Of a DNA stretch of 64,000 bases, positions 24,197-63,208 are shown in pieces. This DNA is from a virus. The DNA is taken from positions 17,628 to 81,627 of the IMG/VR virus record IMGVR_UViG_3300046780_000484; one strand, written 5' to 3'. Every line of letters begins with the position of its first letter. Positions within the stretch are counted from its first letter, which is position 1. Below the pieces are notes generated by a model. The model was not told where the DNA came from, made no database searches, and saw only the letters and a program-made list of their open reading frames with translations. The translations under genes and the position numbers were made by a program.

Positions 24197-24367
24197 TCAG
24201 GCCCTGCGCGCGGTCCCGAGCGCGAACCGGTAGGCGTGGGACCGCTGCTTGCACCTCGCCGAGCAGAACCGGTGAGTCCCGGTCTTAGGGGTGAACGTGA
24301 CCCGGCAGCCAGGGTGCGCGCAGGCGACGGGTTCCCTGGCGGGTGCCTGCGGGGCGGTCCGGGTCAT
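24197..24367 (-). CDS. small zinc-finger protein
   Basis: CAHPGC...FCSARCKQR; TGATG coupling to upstream gene. Confidence 0.6.
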   Translation of the reverse strand: MTRTAPQAPAREPVACAHPGCRVTFTPKTGTHRFCSARCKQRSHAYRFALGTARRA

Positions 24368-24927
24368 CAGCCCCCCTTGACGGTCTTCAGCGCCTTCTGG
24401 GGCTTGAACGACCTCAGTTTCTTCGGCCTGGTCTGCGACTTGAACCCGCTGGGGAGCGTGTACTGGCCGGGTGACCGTGCCGTGGTGACCGACGCGGCGG
24501 TCCTGGTGGCGACCCGGCAGTAGAACCGCTGCGCCTTCGCGTGGGACCGGGTGGTCTTCTGCGAGGCGCGTCTCGCCGCGGCGGCTTTCCGCGCGGCCCT
24601 GACCTTGGCGTAGGCGACCGCCGTGGCGTGGGCGCGGGCGCGCTTGCTGGCGATCCGGTGGTGCCGGTTCCGGGCTTTCAGCTGGGCGGCGGACAGTTTC
24701 CGTTTCGTCGTCTTCGCCGGCGCCTTGGAGGACTTCGCTGCCTTGGGCCGGGTCTTGCTCATGGCCCGCGCCTGCCTGTGCGCGTTGGCGGCTGAGGTGG
24801 CCTTGCGGGTGACGTTGGTGGTGGACTGGCGGGCGGCGTTGTGGGCGGCCTTGCGGACCGTGTGGCTGGTCTTGGCGCGGCGGGTGGCGTGGGCCTGGCG
24901 GCGGGTGGTGTGCTTCCCGCACGACAT
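24367..24927 (-). CDS. histone H1-like highly basic protein
   Basis: 186 aa dominated by K/R/A/T, no Asp or Glu in the given translation; GGAGG RBS. Confidence 0.75.
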   Translation of the reverse strand: MSCGKHTTRRQAHATRRAKTSHTVRKAAHNAARQSTTNVTRKATSAANAHRQARAMSKTRPKAAKSSKAPAKTTKRKLSAAQLKARNRHHRIASKRARAHATAVAYAKVRAARKAAAARRASQKTTRSHAKAQRFYCRVATRTAASVTTARSPGQYTLPSGFKSQTRPKKLRSFKPQKALKTVKGG

Positions 24928-43184: not shown

Positions 43185-46100
43185 CTACTTACCCTCTTCC
43201 ATCTGCGCGTGCTGTGCGGGCCAGTAGCCGAGCGCCCTGTGGTGCATGAGATTTGCGTAGCCCTTGGCCTGCTCGTCGGTCATGTGGGCGTGCTCTTTCA
43301 GCAGCGCGACCGCGCGCATGAAGTCGCCGTCGGTACCCCAGGCAATTTCGTCGGCGTAGGCGAAGTCCGTCGGGCCGCCGTGGGCTTCGTGCGTCCAGTA
43401 CTCGCGTAGCGTCTCGGCGTCACCCTTGTTCGCGGGGTCGTCGCCCTGATGCAACTGACTGCTGTGCGTCTGCAGCGCTTGGGGCATCCACCGGGCCGGG
43501 ACCGTCCCCACGTAGGCGAGGACCGGCTTGCCGAGCTTGAAGTGCCGCGCCATTCCCCGGTGATGGCCGTCGATGATGATCTCCCGGCCGTCGGGGTGGT
43601 TCGCCTGGTGGACGAGGACCGACGGGTTGGTGTGCGCCCCGCCCCTCGCGATGTCCTTGGCGAACCGCTGTACCGCTTCCGGCTGGTGGCTGGCGGCCCA
43701 CGAGTCGATGTCGTCGTCGTCGACGCGCGACCAGGGAACGTTGACGGGCCCGACCCATGTCGAATGCTTGACCCATTCCAGCGCGGAGTCCGGGAAATTG
43801 CCCTCTAGCTGGGCATATACGTGCCGCCATTCCACCGGGTTCGCGTCGGTGACGTGCTGCGCGCCCTTGGGGAGGTCGTGGACGACGTTGCTGCCGGCCT
43901 CCGGGGACCATTCCTCCACCGTCTCGGCCGGGTCGAACGCCTCAGGCTCGGCGGTGTGCGGCTTGTACGGCTCCGGGGTTCGTGCCGGAACGGAGCCGAC
44001 TACCGGGTGCCCGGAGTCGTTCGCGGACTTCACCCCGGACGGCGGCACCCCGGTACGGCCGCCGACGGGAGAGGCGGCAGGGGTGAGCGTGTTCTGCGGC
44101 GCAGGCCACATCTCGTCGTGCGCGTACCCCTGGTTCGGGAACGCCACGGCGGGAGGGTTTGGCTTGCGCCCGCGCGAGGGCATCTCCCCGTCATCCCCGC
44201 CGCGGGGCTCGAGCGTGTCGTGCGGCTCCGGCTCGGCCATGTCGTCGGACCAGCGCGGCGGTTCCCCGCCCGCGCTTCCGGCATCGCCTGGAACGGCCCC
44301 AGGGCCCGCGTCAGGCCATTCCGAGCCGTCCGCCCTGTGCGGATAGGGCCAGCGGCTGCCGACCGCCTGGAGCGCCTGCGAGGCCGGGGTGAGGGTGAGG
44401 ACTTCCCCGTTCGCGTTCACCATGCGCTGGAGGGCCTTGGTGACGTGCTCCCGCAGGGTGATGCCGTGCTCCCAGTCCTCGCGGAACTTCGGGGCCAGGT
44501 CCAGGGCGGCGATCTCCTTGCGGCGGAACCACGCCGCGCCCCGCGTCTCGTCCGGGGTGGCCCCGTCGAGGGTGGGGTGGAAGTACGCGGTGTCGCACAG
44601 CCACAGGTACACCTGCGTCTTGCCGTCGTCCTCCACATGGTGGAAGGTCCCCGCGATCCGCAGTTCAGGGAACTGGCCGATCTCCTCGGCCGTCTCCCGG
44701 AGCACAGCGGTCCACGAGTCCTCACCCACGTGCGGCTTCCCGCCCGGCATGCCCCAGGTGCCGTCGGGGCGCTGCTGGAGCAGGAACCGCCACTTGCCGT
44801 CCTCGTCGCGGGCGCGCAGCAGCAGCCAGACGAGGCGCGTCTCGTCGTCTACGGCGGCGGATTTACCCAGGTGCGCCAGCGGCGGCTCAGCTTCCACGCC
44901 TGCTGGCGCAGGTACGCATCGGCAAGCCGGATGGACCAGCCCCAGTACGCCCCCCGCCGAGAAGACGGCATCGAGCGGGATTTCTCCGTCATCGGCGGCG
45001 TCCTTGCACAAGTCACAGGCGTTAGGCGACAGCAGCAGGTGCTTGAACTGCACCCCGTGGTCGCGGTAGCACTGGATGGCCGCGCTGTTGACCGCCCTGG
45101 CCACTTCGGTCCGGGCGATGAGTTCCGCGCGGACGCTGTTGTTCCCCAGCCCGGTGCGGGCGACCTGCTGGAGCCAGTGCTCCCCCTCGGAGCCGATGAA
45201 CCCGGCCAGCGCCTCAGGGTCCTCCCCCTTGGCGCTGAAGTCCGCGGGAGCGCCCGTGACGAGGGACTTGGCCGCCGCGTAGCCGAGGTGCCACGCTTCG
45301 GTCCACAGGGGCGCCAGGACGCCGGAGAAGACGTCCCGCACCTCGTCGGAGATCAGGTCCCGCAGGGTGGCGTTGCTGACGTACATGCCCCCGGTGGCGG
45401 CCTTGCGGCGCAGGTCCGAGCCTTTGGCCTCGGCGTCGTGGAACGCCTGCCCGATGAGGTTCTTGTACGCGCCGACCAGGCCGAGGTCGCGCTCCCAGCC
45501 GGGCCAGTGCGCGGCGGCCTTCGTCACCTCGCCTGCCGGCGGGTATGAATCAGGGACGGGCCGGGGGCTGCCGCAAGCGACCGGCCCGTCGTCGTCAGCC
45601 TTGAGGCAGATGTCCCCGGCGCGTTCCACAGCCGTGTCGATCAGCACGCCCCTGGCGATGTCCTCGGCGATCATCCCGAGGGCGCGTTCCGGGATGTGCT
45701 CCGTCACCCACGTGCTGATCTGCCGGCCCTTGCGCAGGTGCCGGGCCAGCGCGCCGAGCTCGGAGTCGACGGCCTTCTTGCGGCTGCCGGCGACGGACGA
45801 CCGTGACGGGGTGCCCCCCGTGCGCGGGCCGGGCGACTGGATCGCTCCGGCGGCTGCGGAGTGGGCGGGGGTGACAGACTCCCGGTGCGGCGACACTGGT
45901 GCGGGATGCGAGCCGTTCGGCCGGGTCTGGCCGCCGCGGCGGACGGCCGGCTGGCTGTTCCGGGTCCGCGACGACGTGGTGCGCTGCCCGGAGTTCGTCC
46001 CCTGGCCCCCGGCGCCGCCGCCCTGCATGTTCGCGATGAGCTGCGGGGCCATCGAGAACGGGATCGGCCCCTGCGCCGTGAACACGACCGGCTCGCCCGT

Positions 46101-47657
46101 CTCCTGCAGGCCCCACGGGGGCATGTCCAGCCGGTCCCGCACCTCGTCGATCGAGGAGATGCCGTTCTGCACCTGCTCGACGCCCAGCTGCGTGATCGCG
46201 GCCTTGTCCTCGTCGTCCTGCAGGCCCTCGAAGGAGAACTTCATGTCGTGCTGGCCGCAGATGTCCTGCAGGACGTAGTTGGCGATGCCGCACAGGGTCA
46301 TCAGCAGCGGCTTGGTGGACTTGCGGGACTTCGGGTCCCGGGAGGCCTGCGCGCCGAGCTTGATGCCCGACGCGGACGGGCCCTGCTGGGTGGCGCCGAT
46401 GTCCGGGACGATCCCCAGTTCGGTCGGCATCACGTCGAGCTGCATGAGGACCTGGTTCATCACCAGGTAGTCGAACGAATCCGAAAGATCTACCGGACGC
46501 TGCGGGTCAACCTTGCTGCCAGGCGGAAGTACTATCACTTTAAGGTGATATGCAGGGTCTCCAGCGATTCCATTCAATGCGTCCTGCAGTTCTTTTATCT
46601 GCGTCGGCGTCATGTTCGGGTCGCCGGGCGAGATGTACACCGCCGGGATGGTGCCCTCGGTGAAGTACTGGAGCTGGAACTCCTGCTTCTGCAGGCCCGA
46701 GATGATCGGCAGCAGCGCCTGCTCAATCGGCGGGAACCCGTAGGGGCTTTCCCGGCGCGGGACGAGCGGCAGGTACAGCATCGTGTCGGCGCGGAACTGG
46801 TTGACTTCCGCGCCGGCGAGCCCGTAGTCGTCGATGTCGGCGCCGGAGATGACCGTCTGGAAGTCGCTGCGGGGCACGCCGAAAAGGAACTGCTGGTACG
46901 CCGGGGCCGGGGGGCGGGGCTTGCCGCCGTGCATGTTCAGCAGCGGCCGGATCGTGGGCCCGCTGATCAGGCTGAGGCTGTCCAGGTCGCTGCCGAGCAG
47001 GCCCCGGCCGAGTCCCTTGCCGTACTTGGGCCGGAAGATCAGCGCCAGGGCGTCAAAGACGAAGATCTCTTCGAGCAGCGCCTTGAGGAACGAGCCGAAG
47101 TCGAAGTAGTCCGGGTCCGGGTGCCGGAAGAACTTCGTCGCCTCCGCTGCGCGCTCCCCGAAGTCCCGCATCGCCTTGTGGTCGCCCTGGTAGGCCTTGG
47201 CCGCCTTGGTGGTGAGCTCGATGGACCACTCGAGCCCGGCGATCTCCTCCTTGCGGAGCTCGATGGCGCGGCGGGCGACGTTGTATTTACTGGCGATGGT
47301 CTGGAGCTGGGCGAAGCTGGCGAGCTTGAGGCCTTCGGCGCCGGGCTGGGTGGGGAGGTTCCACCCGACGGGGTACTGCCAGTAGCGCGGGTCGGGGAAG
47401 CCGCCGGGGGCCGCGGGCTCGTCGACGGGGACGGGTTGGATCGGCGACATGGGGCCGAACGCGCCGTCGGTGAACGTCCTGGACGGCCGGGGCAGGAACG
47501 GGCCGTAGCCGTTCTGGCCGGCGCCCGGGTTCCCGTACATCGCGTTGGCGGCGACCTGGTTCATGCCGCCCCAGCCGCCCGACTGCGGCGCGGGGGTGTA
47601 GCGAGCGCCGCCGGGGACTGCCTTCATCGCAGCGAGGACGCCCGAGGTGCGGCTCAT
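43185..47657 (-). CDS. portal protein fused to MuF, NUDIX and ParB/Srx-like domains
   Basis: Portal SPYGFPPIEQ, ISSIDEVRDRLDMPP; MuF IARTEVARA...HPACRC; NUDIX WGMPGGK...AVLRETAEEIG; ParB IIDGHHR. Confidence 0.9.
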   Translation of the reverse strand: MSRTSGVLAAMKAVPGGARYTPAPQSGGWGGMNQVAANAMYGNPGAGQNGYGPFLPRPSRTFTDGAFGPMSPIQPVPVDEPAAPGGFPDPRYWQYPVGWNLPTQPGAEGLKLASFAQLQTIASKYNVARRAIELRKEEIAGLEWSIELTTKAAKAYQGDHKAMRDFGERAAEATKFFRHPDPDYFDFGSFLKALLEEIFVFDALALIFRPKYGKGLGRGLLGSDLDSLSLISGPTIRPLLNMHGGKPRPPAPAYQQFLFGVPRSDFQTVISGADIDDYGLAGAEVNQFRADTMLYLPLVPRRESPYGFPPIEQALLPIISGLQKQEFQLQYFTEGTIPAVYISPGDPNMTPTQIKELQDALNGIAGDPAYHLKVIVLPPGSKVDPQRPVDLSDSFDYLVMNQVLMQLDVMPTELGIVPDIGATQQGPSASGIKLGAQASRDPKSRKSTKPLLMTLCGIANYVLQDICGQHDMKFSFEGLQDDEDKAAITQLGVEQVQNGISSIDEVRDRLDMPPWGLQETGEPVVFTAQGPIPFSMAPQLIANMQGGGAGGQGTNSGQRTTSSRTRNSQPAVRRGGQTRPNGSHPAPVSPHRESVTPAHSAAAGAIQSPGPRTGGTPSRSSVAGSRKKAVDSELGALARHLRKGRQISTWVTEHIPERALGMIAEDIARGVLIDTAVERAGDICLKADDDGPVACGSPRPVPDSYPPAGEVTKAAAHWPGWERDLGLVGAYKNLIGQAFHDAEAKGSDLRRKAATGGMYVSNATLRDLISDEVRDVFSGVLAPLWTEAWHLGYAAAKSLVTGAPADFSAKGEDPEALAGFIGSEGEHWLQQVARTGLGNNSVRAELIARTEVARAVNSAAIQCYRDHGVQFKHLLLSPNACDLCKDAADDGEIPLDAVFSAGGVLGLVHPACRCVPAPAGVEAEPPLAHLGKSAAVDDETRLVWLLLRARDEDGKWRFLLQQRPDGTWGMPGGKPHVGEDSWTAVLRETAEEIGQFPELRIAGTFHHVEDDGKTQVYLWLCDTAYFHPTLDGATPDETRGAAWFRRKEIAALDLAPKFREDWEHGITLREHVTKALQRMVNANGEVLTLTPASQALQAVGSRWPYPHRADGSEWPDAGPGAVPGDAGSAGGEPPRWSDDMAEPEPHDTLEPRGGDDGEMPSRGRKPNPPAVAFPNQGYAHDEMWPAPQNTLTPAASPVGGRTGVPPSGVKSANDSGHPVVGSVPARTPEPYKPHTAEPEAFDPAETVEEWSPEAGSNVVHDLPKGAQHVTDANPVEWRHVYAQLEGNFPDSALEWVKHSTWVGPVNVPWSRVDDDDIDSWAASHQPEAVQRFAKDIARGGAHTNPSVLVHQANHPDGREIIIDGHHRGMARHFKLGKPVLAYVGTVPARWMPQALQTHSSQLHQGDDPANKGDAETLREYWTHEAHGGPTDFAYADEIAWGTDGDFMRAVALLKEHAHMTDEQAKGYANLMHHRALGYWPAQHAQMEEGK

Positions 47658-53664: not shown

Positions 53665-55410
53665 TCACAACCGCCGCCCCCGGAACGGGTCCATCCCGGA
53701 GTATGCAAACCGGCCATTCCCCCCGCCTGCGGACAGGGTGAGCGCTTTCGCCAAATATTGCTCAGGGTTCATCGAACAGTGCGGACACGACGGCTCACGG
53801 GGCGGGTACGTCTTCCCGCACTCCTCGTTCGTGCAGGTCTTCAGGTACGCCACCGACCACGGGACCTGCGCGGGCCTGCCCCCGGCGTGCTTGGCGGGCA
53901 TCGGGGTGACCTCCGCGCCGCAGTTGGCGCACCGCTGGTCCTTGTCCTCGTTGACCCGCGCCCCGCACTTGGTGCAGTCACGGAACCCGTAGACGATGCC
54001 CCAGTCGCCCTGATTGCCGCCGGCGAGGTGGATCATGGCCCAGACAAACGCGTCCGCACGGTCATCGTGCATGCGCGAGCGGTCGTCTTCGATAGTCATC
54101 GCCGACAACTGCTCTTCCAGCTTGCCGAAGCTGTCCCCGACCATGTGCACCCGGCCCTGCATGAACAGGCTGGAAGGCCCCTGCGCCCGCGCGACCTTGC
54201 CCTTCATGCCCGAGACCGGCCGGATCGGGATGTTCGGGTCGACCGTGGCCAGCAGCGACCGGATGAAGTCGCCTGCCACGTTCACTTCCGCCACCACGCA
54301 GTCCGCGGCGTTGCGGTAGAACGCCTCGGCGATGACGCGCATCTGCTGCTCCGGGTCGAACCGGCCCGAGCAGTCCTCGAGGCAGTAGTAGTCCCCGTCC
54401 GCACCCTCCGCCAGGACGGCGATACCGGACTCGTCGCTGCGGGCACTGGACGTGGTAGCCGGGTCATAGCCGACGACGACGCGCCGCCACTGCGGCAGGT
54501 GATCCATCCCGGGGAACACGCGGGTCTCGTTGAACTTCTCCAGCGGGAACAGGCACCCGTCGACCTCGGCCAGCAGCTCGCCTTCGAGTTCCTGCCTGAG
54601 CATGGACGTTCCGGCGTACTTGCGCTCGAGGGTCTTGCGCTGCCTCGCGGCATAGTGCGGGTTCTCGGCGGTACGCCCGCGGGTGACGTGGACGCCGGTC
54701 TCGGCTTCGTTGTCGCCGTCGGCCAGCAGGTCGCGCAGCAGGCGGACCCGCTTAGGCGTGGTGGTGATCAGCAGCCGGGGGTTGTCTCCCTTGCGGAGCG
54801 CCGGCTGCAACCCCTCGTGGTAGAACTGGAAATACCTGATCATCGCCAGTTCGTCGAACCAGGCGTACGCCAGGTTCTCGCCGCGGATCGAGTCGGGCTT
54901 CTCGGCGCTGAAGCCCCGGATCTTGCTTCCGTTCTCGAACGTGAGCTCAAGCCGGTTCTTGTTGTAGTCGGTGATACTGACGCCGTTCACGCGCGCCACG
55001 GCCTCGACGCCGGATTCCCCTTCGATGCAGATGGAGCGGACGGCTTTGTCGGTGGGGGCGCAGATGCCGACGTAGATGCCGGGCTTGGACAGGGCCATCT
55101 CTATGACCCAGTTTGCCCCGCAGAGCGTTTTTCCCCACCCGCGCCCGGTAAGCAGCATCCAGGTGGACCAGTCCGGGTTCCCGTCGCAGCCGCACCTGTT
55201 GCCTTGCAGGTCAGCGTCAGCGTGACGGGGGTGGTCCGGGGGAAGCTGGGACGGCCGGGGCCCGGAGTCTTCCTCCAGCGTCTCCGGCTTGTCCCACCAG
55301 CGGAGCTTCGGGAAATACAGAGCGTGATAATCGCTCAACCAGCGCTCTTGCACGGCCCTCGGCCAGGCCTCGAACCCGTCCGGGAAATCGAGGCCGCCGG
55401 GGGTGCTCAC
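53665..55410 (-). CDS. terL: large terminase subunit with C-terminal zinc ribbons
   Basis: Walker A GRGWGKT, Walker B AWFDELA, ITTTP, QELEGE, GYDPA nuclease, DDRADAFVW. Confidence 0.95.
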   Translation of the reverse strand: MSTPGGLDFPDGFEAWPRAVQERWLSDYHALYFPKLRWWDKPETLEEDSGPRPSQLPPDHPRHADADLQGNRCGCDGNPDWSTWMLLTGRGWGKTLCGANWVIEMALSKPGIYVGICAPTDKAVRSICIEGESGVEAVARVNGVSITDYNKNRLELTFENGSKIRGFSAEKPDSIRGENLAYAWFDELAMIRYFQFYHEGLQPALRKGDNPRLLITTTPKRVRLLRDLLADGDNEAETGVHVTRGRTAENPHYAARQRKTLERKYAGTSMLRQELEGELLAEVDGCLFPLEKFNETRVFPGMDHLPQWRRVVVGYDPATTSSARSDESGIAVLAEGADGDYYCLEDCSGRFDPEQQMRVIAEAFYRNAADCVVAEVNVAGDFIRSLLATVDPNIPIRPVSGMKGKVARAQGPSSLFMQGRVHMVGDSFGKLEEQLSAMTIEDDRSRMHDDRADAFVWAMIHLAGGNQGDWGIVYGFRDCTKCGARVNEDKDQRCANCGAEVTPMPAKHAGGRPAQVPWSVAYLKTCTNEECGKTYPPREPSCPHCSMNPEQYLAKALTLSAGGGNGRFAYSGMDPFRGRRL

Positions 55411-57062: not shown

Positions 57063-57119
57063 AGTGTGGAGGAGAGTGGCGCGTGATGCAAAGCAGGGCG
57101 CGCTACGGTAGCTCGCGGG

Positions 57120-57205
57120 AAGCCGGCAGCCATGCTGGTGTCGGCAAGCGGCGGCCTAGGCGTCGCGCCCTAACGGGTACGCGGGTTCGATTCCCGCCCG
57201 GCTTC
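57120..57205 (+). tRNA. degenerate class II tRNA-like element (anticodon CUA if 6-bp stem)
   Basis: Acceptor AAGCCGG/CCGGCTT, D-stem GCC/GGC, GCGGCG-gcctagg-CGTCGC, variable arm GCCC-taac-GGGT, T-arm GCGGG-TTCGATT-CCCGC; no CCA. Confidence 0.55.
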
Positions 57206-57215
57206 CCGCGCTAGC

Positions 57216-59890: not shown

Positions 59891-60356
59891 GCTAGCCCAC
59901 CTGCTGTGATACGGCCTCGCGTCCGCGCGTAGACCTCCTCAGAAATCCCAGGCACGGGGCGTGACCAGGGCATGTGCGCAGGGTAACCAGGCTCACTTCA
60001 GCCGAAAATCTTGACTGGTGCGAGAGATGGCTTAGGCGCGCTCTGTGACTAGTAGGCACGGAGAGTAACCGGGTTCACTCTGGCCGAAATCTTTGCCAAA
60101 TACGAGAGGGGGCTTGGCGGTACCCCGAATCGTCCCTTTCGTCCCGCGAATCATCCTTGTACCCTGGTGTCCGTTTCCGGTGCGAGCCGGGCCCGCGGCT
60201 CTGTGCGTGCCCGTGCTGCGTCCCCTCCCCTCGCTGCGCTCTGTCCCTCCCGAGCTGTGTGCGTGCGTCTGGTGTCCGTACGGGGGGCATGTGTGCGCTG
60301 TCCTCCCCCGCGTGCGTGCGCATGGGTGCGCGTGCTGAGTTCGTGCGCCGTTCCCC

Positions 60357-60385
60357 TTGACACGCCATGTGGGACGTGGTGTAAT
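60357..60385 (+). promoter_or_regulatory. principal-sigma promoter, leaderless transcript
   Basis: TTGACA-17 nt-TGTAAT, ATG at 60392. Confidence 0.8.
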
Positions 60386-60391
60386 ACACGT

Positions 60392-60619
60392 ATGGCACGG
60401 AGCAAGAGCACGACCACCCGGCACACCTGCGGCGGTCCCGCGTTCGGACGCAAGACCCCCGGATGCCCGCGCTGTGACGAGCTCATCGGTGGCGCAGCCC
60501 CGGTGAAGTGGGCGGGTAGCCAGCGACGGCAGGATGACGAGCGCCTCGCAGCTGAGATCCGCGCGCATGACTGCACCCGCAGCCGCTGCGCCATTGTGTG
60601 CACGTTCGGCGACTGGTGA
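60392..60619 (+). CDS. small Cys-rich protein
   Basis: MARSKSTTTRHTCGG...CPRC...VCTFGDW. Confidence 0.7.
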   Translation: MARSKSTTTRHTCGGPAFGRKTPGCPRCDELIGGAAPVKWAGSQRRQDDERLAAEIRAHDCTRSRCAIVCTFGDW

Positions 60620-60632
60620 GAGAGGACACGTC

Positions 60633-60848
60633 ATGCAGGACATCAACGGACGCGAAGTCACGATCAAGGCGGCGAGCGGGTACCACGGCTACGGCAGTCG
60701 CCCGTTCAGCATCACGGCAGAGACGCGGCAGGGACGGCGCGGATTCCGCGCAACGTGGCTGCCCACGAACAACAGCGCGCGATTCGCCACGATGCGGCAG
60801 GCAACCGCGTTCATAAAGGCCCACGAGCGCATCGCCTACGGCGCCTGA
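60633..60848 (+). CDS. small hypothetical protein
   Basis: GAGAGGAC RBS; MQDINGREV... Confidence 0.65.
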   Translation: MQDINGREVTIKAASGYHGYGSRPFSITAETRQGRRGFRATWLPTNNSARFATMRQATAFIKAHERIAYGA

Positions 60849-60992
60849 CGTGAGCGACTACCAGCCGCGCCACGCGCGCCCGCTACCCGCCATATTCCGC
60901 GGCCTGGCCGACCGGATCGAGCCGGCAGGGAACCCCCGATACCGGGGACGCCACGCTGTTATTGAAGACACGCAACGAGAGGACTGACAGAC

Positions 60993-61148
60993 ATGGACTA
61001 CCCCGCGAACTACGCGAACGGCCGCTGCCCCGAGTGCGGTCGGCCGATGACCTACATTGCCGACAGCAGCGGTCACCAGCCCGGCACGTGGCTTCACGAC
61101 AAGACGGCCGACAGGGACGCCTGCCAGTCCGGTGACGGCCGGTACTGA
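60993..61148 (+). CDS. small zinc-ribbon protein
   Basis: GAGAGGAC RBS; CPECG...H...C. Confidence 0.6.
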   Translation: MDYPANYANGRCPECGRPMTYIADSSGHQPGTWLHDKTADRDACQSGDGRY

Positions 61149-61151
61149 GCA

Positions 61152-61218
61152 GCCTAGGACGAAACGCGCGCTCATCACCGCGCGTCGGCCCGTGAAACGG
61201 GCCCTGATGAGTCCAGGC
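61152..61218 (+). ncRNA. hammerhead ribozyme (type II), copy 1
   Basis: GGAC-GAAA-CGCGCG..CGCGCG-UC^-GGCCCG-ugaaa-CGGGCC-CUGAUGA-GUCC; predicted cleavage after 61186. Confidence 0.92.
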
Positions 61219-61234
61219 GAGAGGACTGAGGGAT

Positions 61235-61405
61235 ATGACGCGCAAGCAGCGTAACGAGCGGGAGCACGAGCGGCGGGAAGAGGAGCGCAAACGCGCCGGC
61301 GCGTGGGGCACGGCTGGCGAGCACGGCATGCGGTGCGCGCACTGCGGCCACGGTCCTCACGGTGACCGGTGCCCCAACTGCGAATGCGCCGACTTCGACT
61401 TCTAG
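61235..61405 (+). CDS. 56 aa protein, charged helix plus CxxC/CxxCxC
   Basis: MTRKQRNEREHERREEERKR...CAHCGH...CPNCECADFDF; between the two ribozymes. Confidence 0.65.
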   Translation: MTRKQRNEREHERREEERKRAGAWGTAGEHGMRCAHCGHGPHGDRCPNCECADFDF

Positions 61406-61466
61406 GACGAAACGCGCGGATGTCACCGCGCGTCGGCCCGTGAAACGGGCCCTGATGAGTCCAGGC
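61402..61466 (+). ncRNA. hammerhead ribozyme (type II), copy 2
   Basis: Same core and stems as copy 1 with a different stem III loop; predicted cleavage after 61434. Confidence 0.92.
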
Positions 61467-61482
61467 GAGAGGACGAGAGAAC

Positions 61483-62094
61483 ATGACGATTACGGCAGAG
61501 CGGCCGGCGCAGACGGCGAACGCAGCCAAGCGCGGGGATCTCGTGGTGTTCGAGGAGCATCACCGCGATTACGTGCTTCACGGCGAGAACCGCGAGTACA
61601 GCACGTTTACGGTAGGCGTCGTCACCAGCGTTACCCGTGACGGTCATGTCAAGATGTACCGCCGCGCCGGCAACTTCGACCAGGGCAAAGACTGGCGCGG
61701 CGAGCCTGACCGCGGCGAATCGGTTCCGTCGCGGATGGTCCGCTCGTACCTGATGAGCTCCAAGAGCATCGACGTGGCGGGGGCGCTCGCTACCGCCGCG
61801 TGCCACGTCTGGGTGACGGACACGGCGCACGAGGACAGCGCGAAGGCGTATGACTCGCTCGCGGAGGTCAAGGCCGCGCTGAAGCCTCACCTGCTCAGCG
61901 CGGCCAGCTGGCGGGAACTGCGCGACGCTGCGGCCGTCTGGGAGAAGTCGCGCCGTGAGGACTCGCCGATGCTCACCGCCGCGCTGGCGGTTGCGTACGA
62001 CGACCGTCCCAGGTACCTCGAGATGTCAGCCGCCTACCACGCGGCAGTCACCGCGGCCAATGAGGCTTACCGCACCGTGTACGCGAACGCCTAG
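61483..62094 (+). CDS. hypothetical protein
   Basis: 203 aa, GAGAGGAC upstream. Confidence 0.75.
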   Translation: MTITAERPAQTANAAKRGDLVVFEEHHRDYVLHGENREYSTFTVGVVTSVTRDGHVKMYRRAGNFDQGKDWRGEPDRGESVPSRMVRSYLMSSKSIDVAGALATAACHVWVTDTAHEDSAKAYDSLAEVKAALKPHLLSAASWRELRDAAAVWEKSRREDSPMLTAALAVAYDDRPRYLEMSAAYHAAVTAANEAYRTVYANA

Positions 62095-62199
62095 CACGAC
62101 GCAGGCTCACGGGTTACGGCCCGTGGCTTGCCCTGGGTGCCCGGAAATGGCCGGGCACCTTGGGTGGGCAGGGAAAAGACGCAGCAACGAGGAGGAGAC

Positions 62200-62508
62200 A
62201 TGGAGACGGTAGCCAGGCACAAGAAAGGCGACCTGCTGAGCACGCTGGCCGCTGGTGACCGCATGTGCTGGCACGCCGGCGCGGGCTACAGCGCCTGGGG
62301 CACCGTGACCGAGGTCAAGGAGCTGCACTACGTGGCCGGCGTCAACGGCCCGGTGTTCCACGGGATCACGGTCCTGCTCGACGTGCCGCACTTCCCGACA
62401 TTCGACAAGTGGGGATGGCCGGTTGACGAGCCGCGCACCGTCACCCGCCGGTTTGACCGCTGGGGCAGCGACATCGAGTACGCCTACACGCCGGGCGTCG
62501 CGCCGTAG
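62200..62508 (+). CDS. hypothetical protein
   Basis: GAGGAGGAG RBS; METVARHKKG... Confidence 0.7.
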   Translation: METVARHKKGDLLSTLAAGDRMCWHAGAGYSAWGTVTEVKELHYVAGVNGPVFHGITVLLDVPHFPTFDKWGWPVDEPRTVTRRFDRWGSDIEYAYTPGVAP

Positions 62509-62613: not shown

Positions 62614-62923
62614 CATGCGCAGAACCGTATCCGTCACCCTGGCCGCGCTCCTGGCCGCCGGCGCCATCCTGGCCGCTACCCTCCCCGCGTCGGCTCAGCC
62701 GGCCGTGAACTGGCACCAGCGGACCTGTACCGCGTTCCGCGCCTGGGACGCGCACCGCACCCCGGGCAGGCTCACGGCGCTCGTGATCGACTCCACGCAC
62801 CTCGGCCGGAGCTACCTCAAGGCTGACGTGGGCTCGCTGTACGCGGACGCCAGCTCGCCCAGCCCGAAGGCGGCCAAGTACCTGGCGAACGACGCCGGCT
62901 ACGTCCGGCAGGACTGCGCGTAG
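62614..62923 (+). CDS. secreted hypothetical protein
   Basis: Signal peptide MRRTVSVTLAALLAAGAILAATLPASA; Cys pair. Confidence 0.7.
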
Positions 62924-62967: not shown

Positions 62968-63144
62968 ATGTTGCCCAAGCCGAGCGCGCAGGATCTTGCC
63001 GAAGCGCGGAAGTCGAAGCCGGTTCACCAGCCGGCGACCGCCGAGTACCGCGAGTCATGGTCGGTCCTGAACCCTCGCGGCAGTGAGGTCTGCTACGGGA
63101 GCTACGAGGAGGCGCTAGCCGCCGCGCAGACCGGAATCTACTAG
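62968..63144 (+). CDS. small hypothetical protein
   Basis: GAGAGGAC upstream; MLPKPSAQDLAEARK... Confidence 0.55.
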   Translation: MLPKPSAQDLAEARKSKPVHQPATAEYRESWSVLNPRGSEVCYGSYEEALAAAQTGIY

Positions 63145-63157
63145 CCGCCACGTCGCC

Positions 63158-63191
63158 GAGAGGCCCGTCCCGATCCCGGGGCGGGCCTCTT
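63158..63191. terminator. hairpin terminator between convergent genes
   Basis: AGAGGCCCGTCCC...GGGGCGGGCCTCT. Confidence 0.7.
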
Positions 63192-63208
63192 CGCATGCCC
63201 GGGGACAG

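What the first reader, a model, noticed from the sequence alone, without database searches (positions are those of the whole stretch)
61152..61466. Tandem hammerhead ribozymes bracket one small gene, predicting a 248 nt circularisable mRNA
Seen: two near-identical type II hammerheads with complete cores; cleavage after 61186 and 61434 releases a 248 nt RNA holding an RBS and the whole 56 aa Cys-rich ORF; joining the ends would rebuild one intact ribozyme. Each ribozyme starts at the previous stop codon and ends at the next RBS. Known: hammerhead cleavage leaves 5'-OH and 2',3'-cyclic phosphate ends that can be ligated, as in retrozymes and viroid-like RNAs. Inference: ribozyme-punctuated operon giving stabilised monocistronic or circular mRNAs, or a mobile ribozyme-gene cassette.
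Basis: partly seen in the sequence, partly recalled or inferred. Interest (0 to 1): 0.85.

Follow-up and report, generated by a model that had tools for sequence, protein, structure and literature searches.

The report
Two hammerhead ribozymes flanking a phage gene
Two genuine self-cutting hammerhead RNAs sit on either side of one tiny gene in an uncultured soil phage, an arrangement described in phages since 2011 that most likely chops a multi-gene message into single-gene pieces rather than making RNA circles.

Summary
Two type II hammerheads lie at 61152-61218 and 61401-61466 (+). Both have complete catalytic cores. They differ at 4 of 73 positions, all in loop III. The predicted cuts after 61186 and 61434 release a 248-nt RNA that carries the ribosome-binding site and the whole 56-aa ORF.

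Seven related soil-metagenome contigs carry the same ribozyme (12 copies). Stems I and III are always paired and show compensatory changes, so the fold is under selection.

The arrangement is not new. Perreault et al. 2011 described several hammerheads flanking single, non-constant genes in prophages. They proposed processing into single-gene mRNAs, considered circles, and did not detect them. In my own sample of 120 IMG/VR loci, 35 hold 2-6 same-strand copies, and 121 of 145 copies sit between a stop codon and a start codon. This scan has also noted such arrays on other DNA before.

In the relatives the ribozyme plus ribosome-binding site is a conserved island of 70-90 nt, while the genes on either side are swapped. 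The closest relative has the same cargo gene and the downstream ribozyme, but no ribozyme within the 52 nt available upstream of the cargo.

Best reading: self-cleaving gene joints that give hairpin-capped monocistronic mRNAs. A circular mRNA is possible but has no support. This is a new member of a known kind.

The parts
60357..60394 (+). Promoter-like site: TTGACA at 60357-60362, a 17-nt spacer, TGTAAT at 60380-60385. The ATG of the first gene follows at 60392, which implies a leaderless start of the + strand accessory operon.
   Evidence: Read from the sequence. The consensus scanner did not list it, because it requires A at position 2 of the -10 hexamer. Inferred, not tested.
60850..60987 (+). 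Conserved 45-aa ORF (called F0 here). It is the left anchor of the variable interval in relatives.
   Evidence: 50% identity to the 38-aa ORF of L123, E 5e-09. Homologous ORFs are present in L123, L125, L126 and L128.
60993..61148 (+). 51-aa ORF with CxxC motifs, upstream of HH1.
   Evidence: Third-position G+C 0.88. Only sub-threshold zinc-ribbon hits in Pfam.
61152..61218 (+). Hammerhead ribozyme 1, type II. Predicted cut after C61186.
   Evidence: 30.4 bits RF02276; 93 bits with model R1.
61219..61226 (+). Ribosome-binding site (GAGAGGAC type) directly after HH1, 8 nt before the ATG at 61235.
   Evidence: Read from the sequence. The same motif precedes the genes at 60633 and 60993, which have no ribozyme.
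61235..61405 (+). Cargo ORF of 56 aa: a charged N-terminus and a Cys/His-rich C-terminus (zinc-ribbon-like). Function unknown.
   Evidence: Third-position G+C 0.86. 86% identical ortholog in L127. One 58-aa homolog in the 5.8-billion-protein set. No Pfam or PHROG family.
61401..61466 (+). Hammerhead ribozyme 2, type II. Predicted cut after C61434. The cargo stop codon TAG (61403-61405) lies in the 5' flank of its stem II.
   Evidence: 33.3 bits RF02276; 93 bits with model R1.
61483..62094 (+). 203-aa ORF downstream of HH2. Function unknown.
   Evidence: Third-position G+C 0.86. 63% identical ortholog behind the same ribozyme in L127. No Pfam or PHROG family.
62618..62923 (+). 101-aa ORF with a signal-peptide-like N-terminus (called F1 here). 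It is the right anchor of the variable interval in relatives.
   Evidence: 78% identity to the ORF at L125 1144-1452, E 2e-47. DNA matches to L123 and L125.
63155..63194 (.). G+C-rich hairpin of 15 pairs between convergent genes. It is the likely end of the + strand transcript.
   Evidence: Fold z -2.69. The region 63142-63206 is 78% alike in L126. Inferred terminator; it has no U tract.

Best explanation
**What it is.** The two elements are active-type type II hammerhead ribozymes. They work as self-cleaving gene joints in a polycistronic accessory-gene transcript of an uncultured, high-G+C soil phage.

**How it likely works.**
- The transcript probably starts at the leaderless promoter near 60357-60392 and ends near the hairpin at 63155-63194.
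- As it is made, each ribozyme folds and cuts after its GUC.
- In the type II order the cut lies between two closed hairpins. The upstream mRNA therefore ends in the G+C-rich stem III hairpin with a 2',3'-cyclic phosphate. The downstream mRNA begins with a 5'-OH and the stem I hairpin, followed directly by its ribosome-binding site.
- The result is separate, hairpin-capped mRNAs for the 51-aa, 56-aa and 203-aa genes. Their decay and translation are uncoupled from each other.

**DNA-level consequence.** The conserved module (stop codon, ribozyme, ribosome-binding site, start codon) also offers 70-90 nt of homology at gene borders. Related phages swap the genes on either side of it.

**Shown versus inferred.**
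- Shown: sequence, fold, covariation, position between genes, and gene swapping in relatives.
- Inferred: transcription of this strand, cleavage in the cell, and the effect on mRNA stability.
For: **Ribozyme identity.**
- Complete core and three stems in both copies.
- Full-length Rfam RF02276 matches.

**Selection on the fold.**
- In the 12 aligned copies of the subfamily (2 from the window, 10 of the 12 in 7 soil contigs), stems I and III are paired in 100% of cells.
- Three pairs in those stems change on both sides. The covariation score is 0.204 against 0.091 in shuffles (0 of 500 reach it), and slid controls score 0.096 or less.
- The one core change seen, in the second copy of L129, is at position 7. 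I recall this as the one core position where any base is accepted.

**Position between genes.**
- 11 of 12 copies carry the upstream gene's TAG inside CTAGGAC, and a ribosome-binding site plus ATG follow within about 20 nt.
- Across 145 copies in 120 unrelated IMG/VR loci: 128 have an upstream ORF ending at the ribozyme, 136 have an ORF starting within 45 nt after it, and 121 have both. Random positions give both in 18% (n=2900).

**Arrays are common.** 35 of 120 of those loci hold 2-6 copies, always on one strand (my hand count of the tables).

**Product ends.** The 248-nt product folds with the stem I hairpin at its 5' end and the stem III hairpin at its 3' end.

**Literature.**
- Perreault et al. 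2011 (PMC3088659, passages read) describe the same arrangement. They showed cleavage of three such arrays in vitro and proposed processing into single-gene mRNAs.
- Olzog et al. 2021 (PMC8782182, abstract and passages read) detected cleavage of three type II hammerheads near phage-like genes in Desulfovibrio vulgaris RNA.
Against: - There are no RNA data for this phage, so transcription, cleavage and product stability are untested here.
- Both copies score below Rfam's gathering threshold.
- By eye I found no pseudoknot between loop I and the 3' tail. Perreault et al. report such a pseudoknot for most type II hammerheads. Fast cutting at cellular Mg2+ is therefore not assured.
- That a 5'-OH and terminal hairpins stabilise bacterial mRNAs is recalled knowledge, not tested here.
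- The reviews read (PMC6765202; PMC6155905) still call the role of phage hammerheads open.
Confidence: 0.6

Rival explanations
1. Circular mRNA. After both cuts, the 248-nt fragment re-forms one hammerhead from its two ends. It is then sealed, either by the ribozyme's own reverse reaction or by a host RtcB-type ligase. The result would be a nuclease-resistant circular mRNA for the 56-aa protein.
For: - The fragment's ends are the two halves of one ribozyme. The two copies share identical stems I and II and identical cores, so the joined form equals HH2.
- The ends (5'-OH and 2',3'-cyclic phosphate) are the substrates of such ligation. Reviews describe this for viroids and retrozymes (PMC6765202; PMC7761336).
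- Four of 7 related contigs also have one or two small genes between two ribozymes that share stem II. Part of that shared stem was required by my search pattern.
Against: - L127 has the orthologous cargo (86% aa identity), the downstream ribozyme and the orthologous next gene. Its 52 nt before the cargo hold another gene's stop codon and a ribosome-binding site, with no ribozyme.
- L125 holds the whole anchor-to-anchor interval with only one ribozyme.
- The 248-nt RNA is not more structured than shuffles (z -0.36; 65 of 200 shuffles fold as well). I recall circular ribozyme RNAs as rod-like.
- Three searches of the paper library found no report of a hammerhead-made circular mRNA in phages.
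Confidence: 0.1
2. Recombination joints or selfish linkers. The main reason these sequences persist would be at the DNA level. The conserved 70-90 nt module acts as a portable border at which co-infecting phages exchange gene cassettes in frame. RNA cleavage would be secondary, or would only serve to make any neighbour gene expressible.
For: - Between contigs, DNA similarity is often confined to the ribozyme module. Window versus L124 matches only at the ribozymes (90-92% over 73-74 nt for the like-type copy).
- L124 and L126 share both ribozymes (90% and 96%) around unrelated 88-aa genes.
- The interval between the conserved anchors F0 and F1 holds different genes and 1-2 ribozymes in the window, L123 and L125.
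- Contigs of another soil run pile up on the two ribozymes and leave the window at their edges. That tool warns that such joints can simply reflect repeats.
- Copies within one IMG/VR locus are more alike than copies from different loci: 0.80 against 0.67 mean identity (42 pairs versus 400 random pairs).
Against: - A mere homology patch would not need an intact catalytic core or compensatory changes in stems I and III.
- Gene swapping is expected next to any conserved intergenic element, so it may be a by-product.
- This rival is compatible with the best explanation rather than exclusive of it.
Confidence: 0.2
3. Slow or conditional cutters. The ribozymes would lack a tertiary contact and cut only under particular conditions (a Mg2+ level, a protein, or a ribosome pausing at the embedded stop codon). 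They would then act as a regulated switch rather than as constitutive processing sites.
For: - Scores below the Rfam gathering threshold.
- Loop I has only about 5 nt, and I could not find a loop I-to-tail pseudoknot by eye.
- The upstream stop codon lies inside the stem II flank. A terminating ribosome would therefore cover part of the ribozyme (read; inference).
- Perreault et al. raise regulated cleavage for phage hammerheads.
Against: - The cores are fully consensus.
- Stems I (6-7 pairs) and III (7-8 pairs) are long and G+C-rich.
- Minimal hammerheads cut without tertiary contacts at higher Mg2+ (recalled).
- No ligand-binding or extra domain is present.
Confidence: 0.1

Closest known systems
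Clustered hammerhead ribozymes flanking single genes or short gene blocks in prophages (Perreault et al. 2011, PLoS Comput Biol, PMC3088659; restated in de la Pena et al. 2017, PMC6155905)
   Same: - Several hammerheads lie close together on one strand.
- They flank small genes of non-constant identity and unknown function, in a phage context.
- The proposed outcome is single-gene mRNAs, with circles considered as an alternative.
   Different: - The host here is an uncultured, high-G+C soil phage with no close cultured relative: terminase identity to known phages is at most 38.5%.
- The unit is very small (248 nt, one 56-aa ORF).
- The two copies are nearly identical.
- I saw passages of the paper only. 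Its figures and supplements were not available to me.
Rfam RF02276, Hammerhead_II
   Same: - Core, three stems and type II order.
- Full-length alignment to the model.
   Different: - Scores of 30.4 and 33.3 bits are below the gathering score of 37.
- Loop I is shorter than in the model.
- The conserved 3' tail of the model, which forms the pseudoknot, is replaced by the ribosome-binding site.
Type II hammerheads of Desulfovibrio vulgaris shown to cleave in cells (Olzog et al. 2021, PMC8782182)
   Same: Type II hammerheads next to hypothetical and phage-like genes. That study detected cleavage fragments with a 5'-OH or a cyclic phosphate in total RNA.
   Different: Those three lie at separate places in a bacterial genome. 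They are not a pair around one gene.
Retrozymes and viroid-like circular RNAs with hammerheads (de la Pena et al. 2020, PMC7761336; Cervera and de la Pena 2020, PMC7229834, listing and abstract only)
   Same: Two hammerheads a few hundred nt apart release a fragment whose ends can be ligated into a circle.
   Different: - Those are eukaryotic.
- They use type I or III hammerheads.
- They are non-coding, and they spread through RNA.
- Here there is a DNA phage operon, a type II hammerhead, a coding fragment, and no excess structure.
Synthetic ribozyme insulators such as RiboJ (recalled; only a search listing was seen)
   Same: A hammerhead placed before a ribosome-binding site cuts off the upstream RNA and leaves a 5' hairpin. 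The gene is then expressed independently of what lies upstream.
   Different: RiboJ is an engineered part, derived (as I recall) from a satellite-RNA hammerhead. The natural phage module also caps the upstream mRNA.

Membership tests
Hammerhead ribozyme, type II (RF02276) | Conserved catalytic core: CUGANGA, GAA, the A15.1-U16.1 pair, and a cleavage-site H17 that is not G | tested here: met
   Both copies read CUGAUGA, GAAA and GUC with the cut after C. These columns are invariant in 12 of 12 aligned family copies. Parts of them were required by my search pattern. The consensus itself is as quoted in Perreault et al. 2011.
Hammerhead ribozyme, type II (RF02276) | Three helices around the core, supported by covariation | tested here: met
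   Minimum-energy folds give the junction. Stems I and III are 100% paired, with 3 pairs changed on both sides. The inner 4 pairs of stem II are invariant, and its outer extension is only about 50% paired.
Hammerhead ribozyme, type II (RF02276) | Type II order: stems I and III closed by loops, stem II open | tested here: met
   The order of elements in the sequence and the cmscan alignment over model positions 1-66.
Hammerhead ribozyme, type II (RF02276) | Score at or above Rfam's gathering threshold (37 bits) | tested here: not met
   30.4 and 33.3 bits. No match at gathering level.
Hammerhead ribozyme, type II (RF02276) | Tertiary contact between stems I and II, for most type II members a pseudoknot of loop I with the 3' tail | tested here: inconclusive
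   Read by eye on alignment A2 and on L129. Neither flank holds a stretch of 4 nt or more complementary to loop I. A non-Watson-Crick contact cannot be judged from sequence.
Hammerhead ribozyme, type II (RF02276) | Self-cleavage | not testable with these tools
   No RNA holder is listed for this DNA. This needs in vitro transcription.
Clustered phage or prophage hammerheads (Perreault et al. 2011) | Two or more hammerheads on the coding strand, flanking single genes or short gene blocks of a phage, with gene identity not conserved | tested here: met
   The window lies in a virus record with terminase and portal genes. Two copies lie 248 nt apart around one ORF. Relatives carry different genes next to the same ribozyme.
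Retrozyme or viroid-like circular ribozyme RNA | A circular RNA form exists | not testable with these tools
   No RNA data.
Retrozyme or viroid-like circular ribozyme RNA | Non-coding, highly base-paired (rod- or branch-like) unit | tested here: not met
   The unit is filled by a 56-aa ORF with gene-like third-position G+C. Its fold has z -0.36. That this feature defines the family is recalled.

The most novel reading that the evidence does not exclude
The pair of near-identical type II hammerheads turns the 56-aa gene into a covalently closed, translatable 248-nt circular mRNA in the infected cell, sealed by the re-formed ribozyme or by a host RtcB-type ligase. This would be the first natural ribozyme-made circular mRNA in a bacterial virus. 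The conserved stop-ribozyme-start module would then serve both as an RNA-circle maker and as a DNA-level cassette border.
Probability: 0.08. Interest if true: 0.75.

Novelty: new member of a known kind. Interest (0 to 1): 0.3.

Why it matters
**Open question.** The reviews read here still list what hammerheads do in phages as unresolved.

**What this locus offers.**
- It is a very clean and very small example: one 56-aa gene, two nearly identical ribozymes, and a 248-nt unit.
- It comes with a set of natural variants that keep the ribozyme and change the cargo, or keep the cargo and lack the upstream ribozyme.
- This makes it a convenient construct for testing two things: whether such joints stabilise and uncouple mRNAs, and whether circles ever form.

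**What it does not change.** The arrangement, the processing idea and the circle idea were all published in 2011. This scan has met similar arrays on other DNA: a word search listed 192 notes in at least 175 genomes (unchecked notes).

Tried and rejected
**Searches that found nothing**
- Default Rfam scan: nothing at gathering level. The E-value mode was needed.
- BLAST of 60850-61700 against 50,697 phage records: no match.
- Exact-pattern scan for the window's own stem I version in IMG/VR: 0.
- Search for relatives of the 203-aa protein in IMG/VR: 0 confirmed.
- Two pattern scans of 185,579 species genomes for this ribozyme subfamily: 0 and 0. No prophage copy and no host were found.
- Library search for hammerhead plus actinobacteriophage: 0 papers.
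- Searches for phage hammerhead circular RNAs: nothing relevant. These cover only the held library.

**Weak or unrelated hits**
- A wider subfamily pattern in IMG/VR gave 6 loci (one of them L031, already held). Their copies score only 25-60 bits with my model, so they are more distant.
- The third loose-pattern match at 24364-24421(-) was rejected as chance.
- Pfam and PHROGs on ten neighbouring ORFs gave only sub-threshold zinc-ribbon hits.

**Sequencing runs**
- No RNA holder is listed. Three soil DNA runs hold the stretch or parts of it, and one of them may be the source.
- Laying their contigs gave no information on RNA. I used it only as a weak hint that other phages in one run share the ribozyme. 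That tool warns that such joints can come from repeats. Parts without cover are not interpreted.

**Ideas dropped**
- That the freed GUCC strand pairs with GGAC of the ribosome-binding site after cleavage. The fold shows 4-5 pairs. However, the same ribosome-binding motif precedes genes without a ribozyme, and the pairing is weak.
- That the two copies are a recent local duplication. They are as alike to each other (69 of 73) as HH1 is to the copy in L123 (94.5% of 73), so nothing can be said either way.
- A loop I pseudoknot: none seen by eye.

**Limits on the literature**
- The supplements of Perreault et al. 2011 (Figures S1-S3 and the alignments) were closed. They may hold closer examples and the data behind the statement that circles were not detected.

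Full report
**Where the window lies.** The window is bases 17628-81627 of an 81.6-kb IMG/VR virus record, estimated 67% complete. Its G+C content is 68%. It encodes a large terminase at 53665-55410(-) and a portal fused to a NUDIX domain at 43185-47657(-). The terminase is at most 38.5% identical to that of any phage in the 50,697-record collection. Arthrobacter phages reach about 30-32% over 78% of its length. The only public runs that hold the DNA are soil metagenomes. Most genes run on the minus strand. From about 58.5 kb to 63.1 kb a block of small genes runs on the plus strand. The finding lies in that block.

**The observation.** Reading 61140-61480 shows the same order of elements twice:
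- GGAC, GAAA, a G+C-rich hairpin, and GUC;
- a second hairpin, CUGAUGA, and GUCC.

This is a complete hammerhead core in the type II permutation, with stems I and III capped and stem II open.
- The minimum-energy folds are the expected three-way junctions. Their z-scores are -4.07 and -3.32, with 0 and 1 of 200 shuffles as good.
- Rfam's Hammerhead_II model aligns to both over its full length at 30.4 and 33.3 bits. Both are under the gathering score of 37, which is why the default scan is blank.
- A loose core pattern has 3 matches in the window against 0.09 expected. The third match is not supported by any model.
- From the CTAG before stem II to the end of the ribosome-binding site, the copies are 69 of 73 identical. 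All four differences are in loop III.
- The three flanking ORFs (51, 56 and 203 aa) have third-position G+C of 0.86-0.88 in their own frames.

- The 51-aa ORF stops at a TGA three codons before the in-frame TAG of HH1.
- The outer part of stem II is not conserved in relatives.

**Relatives and selection on the fold.** No close copy exists in IMG/VR or in 185,579 species genomes. A pattern scan of JGI metagenomes gave seven short soil contigs, L123-L129, with G+C 0.66-0.72.

A covariance model, R1, built from 12 copies gave these results:
- It finds 11 copies at 69-95 bits in the seven contigs. One of them is a second copy in L129 that the pattern had missed.
- It finds none in the rest of the phage record.
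- It finds only the two known copies in the window, at 93 bits each; the next hit scores 12.6 bits.

On the 12-copy alignment:
- 91.8% of the 243 cells are standard pairs.
- Stems I and III are paired in every sequence.
- Three of their pairs change on both sides.
- The covariation score is 0.204, against 0.091 in shuffles (0 of 500 reach it) and at most 0.096 when partners are slid.
- The inner four pairs of stem II never vary, but my pattern required most of them.

The second L129 copy has A instead of U in CUGAUGA. That is the core position I recall as free. The fold is therefore under selection as a ribozyme. Cleavage itself is not shown.

**What surrounds the ribozymes.** The relatives share two anchor genes with the window:
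- a 38-45-aa ORF, at 60850-60987 in the window (50% identity to L123);
- a 101-103-aa ORF with a signal-peptide-like start, at 62618-62923 (78% identity to L125).

Between the anchors, gene content differs in every contig, and there are one or two ribozymes:
- Window: 51 aa | HH | 56 aa | HH | 203 aa, then further genes.
- L123: 154 aa | HH | 91 aa and 38 aa | HH | anchor.
- L125: 57 aa | HH | 105 aa, 74 aa | anchor.
- L124 and L126: two nearly identical ribozymes 339 nt apart, with unrelated 88-aa genes between them.
- L129: two ribozymes around another 88-aa gene.

Four of the 7 contigs have two ribozymes. In pairwise BLAST the similarity between contigs is often confined to 70-90 nt, namely the ribozyme plus the ribosome-binding site up to the start codon. 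In 11 of 12 copies the upstream gene's stop codon is the TAG inside CTAGGAC.

The module is therefore a stop-ribozyme-RBS-start joint. Contigs of a second soil run pile up on the two ribozymes and diverge at their edges. This fits, but the tool warns that such joints can arise from repeats.

**How general this is.**
- By that pattern, 24 of the 120 hold two or more same-strand copies.
- By model R1, 35 of 120 hold 2-6 copies, always on one strand (my hand count; 171 hits in total).
- Of 145 copies far enough from contig ends, 121 lie between a same-strand ORF end and an ORF start. Random positions do so in 18% of cases.

The window's layout is the usual one for this ribozyme in phages.

**What is in print.**
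- Perreault et al. 2011 (PMC3088659, passages read) make these points:
  - Multiple hammerheads flank individual genes or short gene blocks in prophages.
  - The gene identities are not constant.
  - Spliced or circular products were considered but not detected.
  - Three such arrays cleaved as expected in vitro.
- The 2017 review (PMC6155905) repeats that hammerheads lie close together, flanking small non-conserved ORFs, with a persistent phage link.
- The 2019 review (PMC6765202) calls the purpose open.
- Olzog et al. 2021 (PMC8782182) detected cleavage of three type II hammerheads near phage-like genes in bacterial RNA.
- I found no report of a phage hammerhead circular mRNA in the held library.
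- Earlier notes of this scan describe similar arrays on other DNA. I did not check them.

**Mechanism.** The plus-strand block is preceded by a near-consensus promoter: TTGACA, a 17-nt spacer, then TGTAAT. The first ATG lies six bases after the -10 hexamer, which implies a leaderless transcript. A 15-pair G+C-rich hairpin lies between the convergent genes at 63155-63194.

On such a transcript each ribozyme would cut between its two closed hairpins. The upstream RNA would end in stem III with a cyclic phosphate. The downstream RNA would start with a 5'-OH and stem I, followed directly by its ribosome-binding site. The fold of the 248-nt product shows exactly these terminal hairpins.

That such ends slow exonucleases and 5'-end-dependent decay is recalled knowledge. 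That the type II order suits this role is my inference. I rate this processing reading at 0.6.

**The circle hypothesis.** The two halves at the ends of the 248-nt RNA would rebuild one intact ribozyme, so ligation is chemically possible. Four points count against it as the selected product:
- L127 has the same cargo (86% aa identity), the downstream ribozyme and the same next gene (63%). Its 52 nt before the cargo hold another gene's stop codon and a ribosome-binding site, and no ribozyme.
- L125 has a single ribozyme in the whole interval.
- The product has no excess structure (z -0.36).
- The only published attempt on comparable arrays found no circles.

I put this reading at about 0.1.

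**Verdict.** This is a new, tidy member of a kind described in 2011, with a useful set of natural variants. It is of modest interest unless a circle is demonstrated.

Noticed in passing
window 60357-60394: Near-consensus promoter: TTGACA, a 17-nt spacer, then TGTAAT. The ATG of a 75-aa ORF lies 6 nt after the -10 hexamer, which suggests a leaderless mRNA. I recall this as common in actinobacteria. The region 60350-60400 is 79% alike in L128, just before a gene there.
   Followed up: partly
window 59977-60033 and 60059-60115: A 57-nt direct repeat (70% identity, 82 nt apart) inside a stretch of about 480 nt (59900-60390) with little coding signal, upstream of the promoter-like site. Its purpose is unknown.
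   Followed up: no
window 62095-62205: Strongly folded intergenic element after the 203-aa gene. It has two hairpins, one of about 18 pairs (-51.7 kcal/mol, z -3.78, 0 of 200 shuffles as good). It is 81% conserved in L125 at 699-806. It could be a terminator or attenuator, or another RNA element.
   Followed up: partly
window 61146-61157: The 51-aa ORF ends at a TGA, but the TAG embedded in HH1 is in the same frame three codons later. The module's own stop codon may have been the original one.
   Followed up: no
L129 572-651 (-): A second hammerhead in this contig has CUGAAGA instead of CUGAUGA, a different loop I, and a G-U pair in stem I. The same stem I version appears as loose ends of contigs in another soil run.
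   Followed up: partly
window 57118-57206: Weak tRNA-like match: Rfam tRNA-Sec at 30 bits (gathering score 47, E 0.069). ARAGORN finds no tRNA in the window.
   Followed up: no
L123 971-1087, L129 (reverse strand) about 223-495 and 587-769, L128 (reverse strand) 786-950: Many of the small genes next to these ribozymes are Cys-rich (runs of CC/CxxC), like the window's 51-aa and 56-aa ORFs. This suggests a recurrent class of tiny metal-binding proteins as cargo.
   Followed up: no
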